A stretch of DNA of 64,000 nt, from NCBI RefSeq assembly GCF_013315695.1, contig NZ_CP054353.1; one strand, 5' to 3'. Positions within the stretch are counted from its first letter, which is position 1. Each line of letters starts with the position of its first letter. Position numbers: made by a program. Positions 30,801-33,800 of this stretch are shown piece by piece. The stretch comes from Escherichia coli (lineage in GTDB: Bacteria > Pseudomonadota > Gammaproteobacteria > Enterobacterales > Enterobacteriaceae).

Positions 30801-33800
30801 TAGTCAGTTAACGACCCGGGAGATGAAACGATGAACAAGGTTGCTCAATATTACCGTGAACTGGTCGCGTCACTGAGCGAACGCCTGCGTAATGGCGAAC
30901 GTGATATCGACGCACTGGTGGAACAGGCGCGCGAGCGCGTAATAAAAACAGGGGAGTTAACGCGAACCGAGGTCGATGAGCTGACGCGAGCTGTCAGACG
31001 TGACCTGGAAGAGTTCGCCATGAGCTATGAAGAGAGCCTGAAAGAAGAATCTGACAGCGTCTTTATGCGGGTGATTAAAGAAAGCTTGTGGCAGGAGCTG
31101 GCAGACATCACCGATAAAACGCAGCTTGAATGGCGCGAAGTTTTCCAGGACCTCAATCATCATGGGGTTTATCACAGCGGAGAAGTGGTAGGGCTGGGAA
31201 ATCTGGTCTGCGAGAAATGTCACTTCCATCTCCCGATCTACACACCGGAAGTGCTGACGCTATGCCCGAAATGTGGTCATGACCAGTTCCAGAGACGCCC
31301 GTTCGAGCCGTAATGAAATGAGTGGTGCCGGATGGAGTGATGTCATCCGGCGAGTGATTAAGCGTAAAATTTCAGCCGCTCTGCCAGTAAATCAACAAAG
31401 CCCTGACGATCAACATCGACCATTACGGTGGCATTCGGTTTATTGCCAGTCAGATAATAATAATCAACAACCGTCATACCCTGGGTATATCTCCCCTGTG
31501 TTTCCACGCCAACCCAGCGCTCAACAGTGGTAAACAACTCCGGTTTCAACAACCAGGCGATGGTGCATGGGTCATGCAGCGGTGCGCCGACAAAGCCCCA
31601 TTTTTCGTCTTTATGATATTCGAGGAAGAAATCCAGCAGTTCGGCAACAATGGTTGAAACAGGGTTGCCAATGGCGCGGAAACGCTCGGTGTCCTCAACG
31701 TGAATTTGTGCTTTGTGAGTAACATCCAGACCGGCCATCACCACCGGGATCCCTGACTGGAAGACAATTTCTGCCGCTTCCGGGTCAACGTAAATATTAA
31801 ATTCAGCCGCAGGCGTCCAGTTACCAAGCCCCATTGCGCCGCCCATAATCACGATACGGGCAATTTTGCTATGCAGTTCCGGGTGGCTATTGAGCAGCAA
31901 GGCAACGTTAGTTTGCGGTCCGGTAGAAACAATGGTGACAGGTTCCTCACTTTCACACAGCGTTTTCGCCATCAGCTCCACCGCCGTACAGTTTTGCGGT
32001 GCGAACGTCGGTTCCGGTAATGCAGGGCCGTCGAGACCGCTTTCGCCGTGCACATTGTCCGCGATAATCAACTCACGCATTAACGGTTTTACCGCGCCGC
32101 CTGCTACCGGAATATCGGTGCGATTAAGCAAGGTCAGCATACGCAGAACATTGCGTAAGGTTTTTTCTGGTGTCTGGTTTCCGGCGGAAGACGTAATTGC
32201 TTTGACATCAAGCTCTGGTGAGGCGAGGGCGAGAACGATTGCGATAGCGTCATCATGACCAGGGTCGCAATCTAACAGAATTGGCAGTGCCATTGTTGCT
32301 CCTTGTTGTGTGCTTCTTTGCGACAAGGGTACCGCCAGGATGTAACAGATACGAGGAGCGAAACGATAAAGCGTGAGATGGCGCGCACTTGGGTATGCGC
32401 GCCAGAGTGATTAATGCAGGATTTTTGCGAGGAAGTCTTTTGCGCGGTCCGATTTCGGATCATCGAAGAAAGCGTCTTTCGGCGAGTCTTCGACAATTTT
32501 ACCCTCGTCCATAAAGATCACCCGATTCGCCACTTTACGGGCAAAGCCCATTTCGTGGGTCACCACCATCATGGTCATTCCTTCGTTCGCCAGTTCCACC
32601 ATCACGTCCAGCACTTCGTTGATCATCTCCGGATCCAGCGCCGATGTCGGTTCGTCGAACAGCATCGCTATAGGATCCATGCACAATGCGCGAGCGATCG
32701 CCACACGCTGCTGCTGACCGCCGGAAAGCTGCGCCGGAAACTTATTGGCATGAGCGGAAAGCCCGACGCGCTCCAGCAATTTCAATGCTTTTTCACGAGC
32801 GGGGGCTTTATCGCGTTTAAGCACTTTCACCTGCGCCAGGGTCAGGTTTTCAATAATCGACAAATGGGGGAACAACTCGAAATGCTGGAACACCATCCCG
32901 ACGCGGGAACGCAGCTTTGCCAGATCGGTTTTCTTATCGTTAACCACGATACCATCGACGGTAATTTCACCTTGCTGCACCGGTTCGAGGCCGTTGACGG
33001 TTTTAATCAGCGTTGATTTGCCGGAACCAGACGGGCCGCAAACCACCACCACTTCGCCTTTTTTCACTTCGGTTGAGCAGTCGGTCAGCACCTGAAAGTG
33101 ACCATACCATTTTGAAACATTTTTCAGGGTAATCATTATGCTGTCCTTCTTTTCAAGTAGCTGACCAACAACGATGCGCTAAGGCTAATAACGAAATAAA
33201 CAAATCCGGCAAACAGGATCATCTCGACCTGCGTACCATCACGCTCACCAATGGTTGAGGCGGTACGGAAGAAATCGGCCAGAGATAACACATACACCAG
33301 TGAGGTATCCTGGAACAGTACGATGCCCTGAGTGAGCAGAAGCGGCACCATCGCGCGGAAAGCCTGCGGCAGAATAATCAGTTTCATCGACTGCCAGTGA
33401 GTCATCCCCAACGCCAGCGCGGCGCTCGACTGACCACGGGAAATACTTTGAATACCGGCACGGATAATCTCTGAATAGTAGGCCGCTTCAAACATCGAAA
33501 ACGCCACCATTGCCGAAATTAAACGGATATCATTTTTTGGCGATAATCCCAGCACGTTTTGCAGAAATCCCGGCACAATCAGGTAAAACCACAGCAAAAC
33601 CATAACTAAAGGAATCGAGCGGAATACGTTAACGTAGGCTTTGGCAAACCACGCTACGGGCGCAAAGCTGGACAAGCGCATCACCGCCAGCATGGTGCCC
33701 CATAAAATACCAATCACCACTGCCGTGACGGTGATTTTCAGGGTGATCACCAGCCCATCCAGCAGATATGGCAGGGAAGGGACAATGGAACTCCAGTCAA

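What the first reader, a model, noticed from the sequence alone, without database searches (positions are those of the whole stretch)
31314..31357. ybeL and rihA are adjacent: the K-12 ybeQ-ybeR-djlB-ybeT-ybeU-djlC-hscC island is absent
In K-12 about 7 kb carrying Sel1-repeat proteins and the Hsc62/DjlC chaperone system separates ybeL from rihA. Here the two genes are convergent with only a 44-bp spacer containing a perfect 8-bp-stem hairpin (gccggatg..catccggc). This looks like the unoccupied site, and the hairpin may mark the island integration point.
Basis: partly seen in the sequence, partly recalled or inferred. Interest (0 to 1): 0.4.

Follow-up and report, generated by a model that had tools for sequence, protein, structure and literature searches.

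The report
Island-free ybeL–rihA junction with REP hairpin
In this E. coli strain, ybeL and rihA sit back to back, separated by a 44-bp spacer that is mostly a leftover of a common bacterial repeat (REP); this is a minority version of a site where most E. coli carry an old 8-kb chaperone gene cluster, so it is ordinary strain-to-strain variation and not a new element.

Summary
ybeL (30831-31313, +) and rihA (31358-32293, -) are convergent, with a 44-bp spacer. The spacer holds a perfect 8-bp-stem hairpin (31327-31351).

K-12 has 7,976 bp (ybeQ-ybeR-djlB-ybeT-ybeU-djlC-hscC) in that place. Among 5,426 complete E. coli genomes:
- 962 (17.7%) carry this island-free allele;
- 4,445 (81.9%) carry the island;
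- 13 carry a different 1.25-kb cassette.

The hairpin is a shortened REP element. It aligns with the outer arms of canonical REPs or REP pairs in the same spacer of Citrobacter and Salmonella arizonae. Island-bearing alleles keep none of it. They diverge from 31315-31322 to 31351-31353, so the island and the hairpin are alternative occupants of one slot.

Nothing supports an attachment site: no integrase, tRNA or terminal repeats.

The island is not a K-12 addition. It sits in the same slot in other Escherichia species, Salmonella enterica and a third lineage, with synonymous divergence matching the flanks. The island-free allele is scattered over several E. coli backgrounds.

It is therefore more likely an old loss allele spread by homologous recombination than a never-occupied target. 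Direction remains unresolved. Low interest.

The parts
30831..31313 (+). ybeL (zinc-ribbon protein, DUF1451), stop TAA at 31311-31313
   Evidence: ORF list. Pfam PF07295, E 7e-50. RefSeq annotation of identical or near-identical records.
31314..31357 (.). 44-bp spacer between the convergent stop codons; this is the island-free allele of the ybeL-rihA slot
   Evidence: The same spacer is present in 962/5426 complete E. coli genomes. It aligns with the spacers of UTI89, Nissle 1917, a 7%-divergent Escherichia lineage and Citrobacter.
31327..31351 (.). REP-derived palindrome: arms GCCGGATG (31327-31334) and CATCCGGC (31344-31351) with a 9-nt loop. It starts 13 nt after the ybeL stop and ends 6 nt before the rihA stop.
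   Evidence: Unique in the window, 0/100 shuffles. Stable on both strands. The arms match the REP consensus GCCGGATG...TATCCGGC quoted in PMC12306157. It aligns to the outer arms of REP pairs in Citrobacter and S. arizonae.
31315..31351 (.). Allele-specific segment: the part with no counterpart in island-bearing genomes, which have about 8 kb here instead. The left limit is uncertain within 31315-31322 and the right limit within 31351-31353.
   Evidence: In island-bearing genomes the megablast alignments stop at window 31314-31316 (once at 31321) and resume at 31351-31354. blastn-short finds no copy of the spacer inside the K-12 island apart from 9-nt REP-arm words.
31358..32293 (-). rihA (pyrimidine-specific ribonucleoside hydrolase), stop codon complement at 31358-31360
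   Evidence: ORF list. Pfam PF01156, E 1.5e-105. RefSeq annotation.

Best explanation
Window 31314-31357 is the island-free allele of a polymorphic slot between the convergent genes ybeL and rihA.

What the hairpin is. Its core is a 25-nt palindrome that is a shortened REP (repetitive extragenic palindromic) element. It is equivalent to the two outer arms of the REP pair found in the same spacer in Citrobacter and Salmonella arizonae.

What it probably does (inferred, not shown). As RNA it forms a stable hairpin at the 3' end of both convergent transcripts. It lies 13 nt past the ybeL stop and 6 nt past the rihA stop. Its expected role is that of other REPs: protecting the 3' end against exonucleases and, being within 15 nt of both stop codons, possibly damping translation of the upstream genes. 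It is neither a canonical intrinsic terminator nor an attachment site.

The alternative occupant. In 82% of E. coli the same slot holds the 8-kb ybeQ-hscC cluster. That cluster consists of two paralogous Sel1/DUF1266/J-protein modules plus the Hsp70 HscC, and it brings its own terminator-like hairpins. Island and REP hairpin are mutually exclusive occupants of the slot.

History (inferred from distribution and divergence). The island has been in this slot since before the Escherichia radiation, and probably since the Escherichia-Salmonella ancestor. The island-free allele is therefore most likely an old loss allele, with a REP at the scar, and not a never-occupied target. It has spread among E. 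coli lineages, and into at least one other Escherichia lineage, by homologous recombination through the conserved flanking genes.
For: Anatomy of the site.

REP identity:
- The arms match the REP consensus (text).
- TGCCGGATG is invariant across the E. coli empty alleles and Citrobacter (A1).
- The hairpin aligns with the outer arms of inverted REP pairs in C. portucalensis, C. youngae, Citrobacter sp. wls619 and S. arizonae, and with an equally short hairpin in Citrobacter sp. FP75 (A2; raw spacers).

Mutually exclusive occupancy:
- Breakpoints fall at 31314-31322 and 31351-31354.
- No copy of the spacer exists in the island.

Allele counts: 962 empty, 4,445 island, 13 cassette.

No integration machinery:
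- The island encodes only Sel1, DUF1266, J-domain and Hsp70 proteins.
- No tRNA.
- The longest word shared by the two island ends is 8 nt, and 64/300 shuffles do as well.

Age of the island:
- It occupies the same slot in Escherichia sp. E1V33, E. whittamii and MOD1-EC7003, E. marmotae, S. enterica and an unidentified enterobacterium.
- Four-fold-site divergence K-12 vs Salmonella is 1.1-2.4 for island genes against 0.6-1.2 for flanks.
- K-12 vs the cryptic Escherichia lineages it is 0.15-0.78 against 0.19-0.54.

Spread by recombination:
- On 9.8 kb of upstream flank, the empty alleles fall in at least three E. coli sub-lineages interleaved with island carriers. A UTI89-like background carries a partial island.
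- A 7%-divergent Escherichia lineage carries the same empty allele.

Function (literature only): REPs stabilise transcripts, and REPs within 15 nt of a stop codon stall ribosomes (PMC12306157).
Against: - Direction is not proven. Most Enterobacteriaceae genera outside the Escherichia/Salmonella group have no island, and many have a REP-type palindrome 6-13 nt after the ybeL stop. The empty allele could therefore be an unbroken descendant of the pre-island state.
- The empty spacer cannot be produced from any extant island allele by a simple deletion.
- E. albertii, E. fergusonii and S. bongori could not be examined.
- The hairpin lacks the inner stem and the CCTAC tail of canonical REPs, and only one copy lies in the 64-kb window. 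Its multi-copy status could not be tested.
- No expression or 3'-end data exist here, so the RNA role is inferred from other REPs.
- Homology of the few spacer bases shared by the two alleles (about 6/9 on the left, about 4/6 on the right) is weak.
Confidence: 0.6

Rival explanations
1. The site is the ancestral, never-occupied target. The ybeQ-hscC island is a later insertion into or at the hairpin, and the empty allele has persisted, or been re-imported, unchanged since before the insertion.
For: - Gene adjacency without the island is the rule across about 60 species-level loci from other genera.
- REP-type palindromes sit at the same distance from the ybeL stop in Citrobacter, S. arizonae, Pseudocitrobacter and Kluyvera (A1; A2).
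- The 37-nt hairpin segment cannot be derived from the island allele by deletion.
- The right breakpoint coincides with the base of the hairpin.
- Island GC is somewhat low, mean about 0.47 against 0.51-0.52 in the flanks.
- HscC distribution in prokaryotes is described as sporadic, suggesting horizontal transfer (PMC8215388).
Against: - The island is in the same slot in at least five Escherichia lineages, S. enterica and a third genus-level lineage, and it has co-diverged with the flanks. Never-occupied descent would require a presence/absence polymorphism older than these genera, or several independent gains at one slot.
- No half-hairpin, target duplication or recombinase exists.
- REPs are mobile and could have colonised the spacer after a loss.
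Confidence: 0.3
2. The REP hairpin is mechanistically involved in cargo exchange. The slot would be a hotspot because REP or REP-pair hairpins promote illegitimate recombination or REP-associated transposase activity. That would let unrelated gene cassettes enter and leave without an integrase.
For: - Unrelated cargo occupies the same slot in different lineages. Examples are the hscC cluster, a DUF6985 cassette in 13 E. coli, a chaperone-usher fimbrial operon in Citrobacter sp. MGH106, and a TpsA/TpsB pair in Leclercia.
- Cargo-free alleles are almost entirely REP sequence.
- One breakpoint lies at the hairpin base.
- The cargo alleles of E. coli and Citrobacter MGH106 share a rihA-side frame, a hairpin plus TCTTAATCAA(T)GAC (A3).
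Against: - No cargo allele examined has REP sequence at its borders.
- No REP-associated transposase lies nearby.
- Spacers between convergent genes are permissive for insertions in general, so a hotspot needs no special mechanism.
- The evidence is correlational only.
Confidence: 0.12
3. The hairpin is simply a bidirectional intrinsic (Rho-independent) terminator for ybeL and rihA and is unrelated to REPs.
For: It has a GC-rich 8-10-bp stem, stable on both strands, placed between convergent genes. In the island allele, terminator-like hairpins occupy the corresponding positions (right-end hairpin in A3).
Against: - There is no U-tract after the stem on either strand, and the terminator scan does not call it.
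- The arm sequences are those of the REP family, and the hairpin aligns with canonical REPs in other genera.
Confidence: 0.08

Closest known systems
REP / BIME / REPIN elements of Enterobacteriaceae (consensus GCCGGATGCGGCGTGAACGCCTTATCCGGCCTAC)
   Same: The element is extragenic and palindromic, and at 25 nt falls in the 14-40 nt size range. Its left arm GCCGGATG is identical to the consensus and its right arm CATCCGGC matches at 7/8. It lies just after the stop codons of convergent genes. It is positionally equivalent to canonical REPs and inverted REP pairs in Citrobacter and S. arizonae.
   Different: It is shortened: the inner stem and the CCTAC tail are missing. It looks like the two outer arms of a REP pair with about 57 nt of interior removed. 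Copy number of this variant in the genome was not measured.
Strain-variable chromosomal islets (accessory gene clusters lacking mobility genes, exchanged by flanking homologous recombination)
   Same: The alleles differ by presence or absence at a fixed slot between conserved core genes. No integrase, tRNA or repeats are involved. The alleles are scattered over the local phylogeny. Partial and replaced variants exist.
   Different: The cluster is unusually old and stays in the same slot across genera. The cargo-free allele is not a clean excision of the cargo, because the whole intergenic core differs.
HscC (Hsc62)/DjlB/DjlC specialised Hsp70 system of E. coli K-12
   Same: This is the content of the island that is absent from the window. 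The annotation and Pfam domains agree: HSP70, DjlB_C_2nd, DUF1266 and Sel1. The literature reports Cd2+ and UV sensitivity phenotypes of hscC mutants (PMC8215388).
   Different: It is not present in the window at all. It is relevant only as the alternative allele.
att sites of integrase-borne genomic islands
   Same: A short palindromic sequence lies at the position where an island is present in other strains.
   Different: There is no recombinase, no tRNA or tmRNA gene, no direct repeats flanking the island, and no part of the hairpin at either island end.

Membership tests
REP (repetitive extragenic palindromic) element | Extragenic location, usually at gene 3' ends | tested here: met
   It lies wholly in the 44-bp spacer, 13 nt after the ybeL stop and 6 nt after the rihA stop.
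REP (repetitive extragenic palindromic) element | Palindrome able to form a stable stem-loop, 14-40 nt long | tested here: met
   It is 25 nt with a perfect 8-bp stem. Folding gives -15.5 and -14.6 kcal/mol, z -3.3 and -6.2.
REP (repetitive extragenic palindromic) element | Shares the family consensus motif | tested here: inconclusive
   The arms match, GCCGGATG at 8/8 and CATCCGGC vs TATCCGGC at 7/8, and UTI89 has a central GCGTGA. The inner stem and CCTAC tail are absent. It aligns to the outer arms of canonical REP pairs in other genera.
REP (repetitive extragenic palindromic) element | Many copies per genome | not testable with these tools
   Only 64 kb of this genome is available, and it contains one such palindrome. 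A canonical REP of the same family lies in the K-12 island between djlC and hscC.
Integrase-type genomic island attachment site | Island encodes an integrase, recombinase or transposase | tested here: not met
   The seven island genes are Sel1, DUF1266, J-domain and Hsp70 proteins. PADLOC gave no significant system hit.
Integrase-type genomic island attachment site | Direct repeats (duplicated att core) flanking the island | tested here: not met
   The longest word shared by the two island ends is 8 nt, inverted. 64 of 300 shuffles do as well or better. No hairpin half lies at either end.
Integrase-type genomic island attachment site | tRNA or tmRNA gene at the junction | tested here: not met
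   ARAGORN finds none in window 25000-40000, in the K-12 locus or in the Salmonella locus.
Rho-independent terminator | GC-rich stem followed by a U-tract | tested here: not met
   The stem is present, but the 3' tails are gagtgatt on the + strand and accactca on the - strand. The consensus scan does not call it.
Known Rfam RNA family | Match to a curated covariance model | tested here: not met
   There were no hits at E <= 1 in window 30500-32500.

The most novel reading that the evidence does not exclude
The ybeL-rihA slot could be a very long-lived, cross-genus presence/absence polymorphism. REP-only and cargo-bearing haplotypes would have coexisted, or been repeatedly exchanged, in Escherichia, Salmonella and Citrobacter since about the time these genera split. 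The REP or REP-pair hairpin would act as the recombination-prone boundary that lets unrelated cargo swap in and out without any integrase. Known cargo includes the HscC chaperone cluster, a fimbrial operon, a DUF6985 cassette and a two-partner secretion pair.
Probability: 0.15. Interest if true: 0.5.

Novelty: already known. Interest (0 to 1): 0.18.

Why it matters
This finding matters little on its own. It is a routine accessory-gene difference between E. coli strains, plus a REP remnant of a well-known kind.

It has three modest uses:
- It corrects the intuitive reading that the cluster is a 'K-12 island'. The hscC cluster is the old, majority state, and the empty site is the minority allele.
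- About 18% of sequenced E. coli, including UTI89 and Nissle 1917, naturally lack the HscC/DjlB/DjlC chaperone system. They are natural knock-outs for its poorly understood function.
- The slot is a tidy example of REP hairpins and gene cargo being alternative occupants of a convergent-gene spacer. It could be used to test whether REPs promote cargo turnover.

Tried and rejected
- Attachment-site idea. Rejected: no recombinase, tRNA, terminal repeats or half-hairpins.
- 'Phylogroup B2-specific deletion'. UTI89 and Nissle carry the empty allele, but the window's flanks are closer to K-12 than to UTI89. Empty alleles are interleaved with island carriers on the flank tree.
- The island's internal REP (between djlC and hscC) as the ancestral spacer REP, with DNA inserted on both sides. 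Only the generic REP arms match and the flanks are unrelated. Dropped.
- Simple deletion of the K-12 island producing this spacer. Impossible, because the 37-nt core has no source in the island allele.
- L108, an HscC 87% identical to K-12's, first looked like the cluster at a different locus, which would have shown mobility. tblastn and blastn showed a rihA remnant and ybeL at the contig ends, so it is the same slot in another lineage.
- Rfam and the terminator scan found nothing at the hairpin.
- PADLOC on the island proteins gave no defence system.
- An exact-sequence look-up of an E. albertii YbeL found no contig, so E. albertii and E. fergusonii remain unexamined.
- Literature searches for this polymorphism found no paper describing it. 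One search was malformed.

Full report
**Observation.**
- The window encodes ybeL on the + strand (30831-31313) and rihA on the - strand (31358-32293). They are convergent and separated by exactly 44 bp, 31314-31357.
- Pfam confirms both proteins: DUF1451 zinc ribbon and IU_nuc_hydro.
- The spacer contains GCCGGATG (31327-31334), a 9-nt loop, then CATCCGGC (31344-31351).
- This palindrome is the only one of its type in the 64-kb window, and none appears in 100 shuffles.
- The isolated spacer folds to -15.5 kcal/mol on the + strand (z -3.3) and -14.6 on the - strand (z -6.2).
BW25113 has ybeL, ybeQ, ybeR, djlB, ybeT, ybeU, djlC, hscC, rihA.
- K-12 has 7,976 bp between the two stop codons, about 8 kb and not 7.
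- The window is identical here to E. coli MS 21-1.

**How common the arrangement is.**
- 962 of 5,426 complete E. coli genomes have the contiguous ybeL-spacer-rihA arrangement. They include UTI89 and Nissle 1917.
- 4,445 have the K-12-type ybeL/ybeQ junction.
- 13 have a different 1.25-kb cassette encoding a weak DUF6985 match.
- A shortened island that has lost its first module is also frequent (L090).

**What the hairpin is.**
- Its arms are those of the enterobacterial REP family. The consensus GCCGGATGCGGCGTGAACGCCTTATCCGGCCTAC is quoted in PMC12306157.
- I extracted the ybeL-rihA spacer from 80 species-level loci.
- Citrobacter, S. arizonae, Pseudocitrobacter and Kluyvera carry canonical REPs or inverted REP pairs. 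These begin 6-13 nt after the ybeL stop.
- In alignment A2 the E. coli hairpin lines up with the two outer arms of the REP pair of C. portucalensis, C. youngae, Citrobacter sp. wls619 and S. arizonae. Citrobacter sp. FP75 has an equally short version.
- TGCCGGATG is invariant across all these sequences (A1).
- The hairpin is therefore a shortened REP or collapsed REP pair.
- It is not an Rfam family.
- It is not a canonical intrinsic terminator, since it has no U-tract and the scan does not call it.

**Relation to the island.**
- In island-bearing genomes, similarity to the window stops at 31314-31316 (31321 in one strain) and resumes at 31351-31354.
- The right breakpoint is the base of the hairpin's right arm.
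- The island alleles contain no part of the hairpin segment. blastn-short finds only 9-nt REP-arm words, at an unrelated canonical REP between djlC and hscC.
- The hairpin and the 8-kb cluster are thus alternative occupants of one slot. This is a replacement, not a clean insertion.
- The island ends share no repeats beyond chance, there is no tRNA, and the island encodes only Sel1, DUF1266, J-domain and Hsp70 proteins. No known defence system was found.
- The island allele supplies its own terminator-like hairpins next to ybeL and next to rihA.
- The rihA-side hairpin plus TCTTAATCAATGAC is shared with three other alleles: the DUF6985 cassette allele, Salmonella, and a Citrobacter carrying a fimbrial operon in the slot (A3). 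It is probably an old rihA 3' region and not island DNA.

**Direction of change.**
- Outside Escherichia and Salmonella the hscC cluster is absent from the slot. The deep ancestral state is therefore island-free.
- The cluster is nevertheless not a K-12 addition. It sits in the same slot in:
  - Escherichia sp. E1V33, E. whittamii and MOD1-EC7003;
  - E. marmotae;
  - S. enterica subsp. enterica, where HscC is 83% identical;
  - an unidentified enterobacterium with a decayed rihA.
- Four-fold-site divergence of island genes is comparable to, or higher than, that of the flanks:

| Comparison | Island genes | Flanking genes |
|---|---|---|
| K-12 vs Salmonella | 1.1-2.4 | 0.6-1.2 |
| K-12 vs cryptic Escherichia | 0.15-0.78 | 0.19-0.54 |

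- The cluster has therefore co-diverged with its hosts.
- Several independent gains at one slot are less parsimonious than one old gain followed by losses in Citrobacter, S. arizonae and part of Escherichia.
- Against that, the empty spacer cannot be made from an island allele by deletion, and it resembles the REP-occupied spacers of relatives. A later REP colonisation of the scar, or an unbroken island-free lineage, has to be assumed.
- I put ancient loss at roughly 0.6 and never-occupied descent at roughly 0.3.

**Spread within E. coli.**
- On 9.8 kb of upstream flank the empty alleles fall into at least three E. coli sub-lineages: the window, L087/L089/L093, and the UTI89-like L091/L096. 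These are interleaved with island carriers.
- A UTI89-like background carries a partial island.
- A lineage 7% divergent from E. coli (L005) has the same empty allele, with 3 differences in 39 nt.
- The flanks next to the junction show no excess divergence between allele classes.
- This pattern fits exchange of alleles by homologous recombination through ybeL/leuS and rihA/gltL. It rules out a single clade-specific event such as a B2 deletion.

**Function.**
- No expression data are available here.
- From the literature, REPs protect upstream mRNA from 3' exonucleases, and REPs within 15 nt of a stop codon stall ribosomes and lower expression (PMC12306157).
- This hairpin is within 15 nt of both stop codons, so both effects are plausible for ybeL and rihA. 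This is inference.
- The absent cluster encodes the HscC/DjlB/DjlC Hsp70 system. hscC mutants are reported to be Cd2+ and UV sensitive, and HscC's distribution is described as sporadic (PMC8215388).

**Verdict.**
This is the island-free allele and the hairpin does mark the slot. However, the hairpin is a REP remnant and not an integration site, and the island is the older, majority state in Escherichia.
- I found no paper describing this particular polymorphism. It is still ordinary accessory-genome variation of a known kind, so interest is low.

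Noticed in passing
window 36082-37959 (+): A 625-aa ORF with an N-terminal Rhomboid domain (Pfam E 2.9e-28) and a beta-propeller/WD40-like C-terminal half lies between gltI and lnt. K-12 has an IS5 at that position instead. The same gene is present in several other E. coli loci (L087, L091, L093, L096).
   Followed up: partly
L002 2515-3789 (E. coli O18ac:H14 873.10): A third allele of the slot: a 1.25-kb cassette with a weak DUF6985 match, found in 13/5426 genomes. It keeps the 16-nt left end and the ~45-nt rihA-side hairpin frame of the island allele but none of the island genes.
   Followed up: partly
L090 10484-15652: A partial island lacking the ybeQ-ybeR-djlB module (only ybeT-ybeU-djlC-hscC, 5.2 kb) sits on UTI89-like flanks, with at least 44 similar places. 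The full island is two paralogous three-gene modules (67% nt identity) plus hscC.
   Followed up: partly
L014 10484-17352 (Citrobacter sp. MGH106); L048 10484-14426 (Leclercia sp. 29361): The same ybeL-rihA slot holds a chaperone-usher fimbrial operon (usher, PapD-like chaperone, fimbrial subunit) in one Citrobacter. In Leclercia it holds a TpsA/TpsB two-partner secretion pair. Neither has mobility genes.
   Followed up: partly
L103 8687-9925 and 17741-21680 (Salmonella enterica): The Salmonella version of the island has an extra 412-aa gene with no Pfam match, inserted between rihA and the conserved hairpin upstream of hscC. Additional genes (a PrpR-like sigma-54 activator, KdgT, a dehydratase) lie between ybeL and leuS.
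   Followed up: no
L001 2100-8193 vs L103: The island's co-chaperone and repeat proteins are far more diverged between E. coli and Salmonella (YbeQ 50%, DjlB 47%, DjlC 57% amino-acid identity) than HscC (83%) or the flanking genes (93-97%). This suggests rapid or diversifying evolution of the client-targeting parts.
   Followed up: no
L108 1436-1573 and 6125-8841: An unidentified enterobacterium has the hscC module in the same slot, but with rihA reduced to a 3' remnant. It also has a djlB 3' remnant, plus RibD_C, AlaE and a 315-aa gene between the Sel1 gene and ybeL. Relatives of the 315-aa gene sit next to ybeL in several other genera (L006, L030, L035, L067).
   Followed up: partly
L041 10484-11129, L042, L043, L059, L062: In Lelliottia, Huaxiibacter and Enterobacter the ybeL-rihA spacer is filled by 2-7 tandem copies of a ~94-nt unit. 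The unit consists of a terminator-like hairpin plus a CCCTCTCCC...GAGGGT...GGGTGAGGGCATCAGGCC palindrome, a different genus-specific repeat family in the same slot.
   Followed up: no
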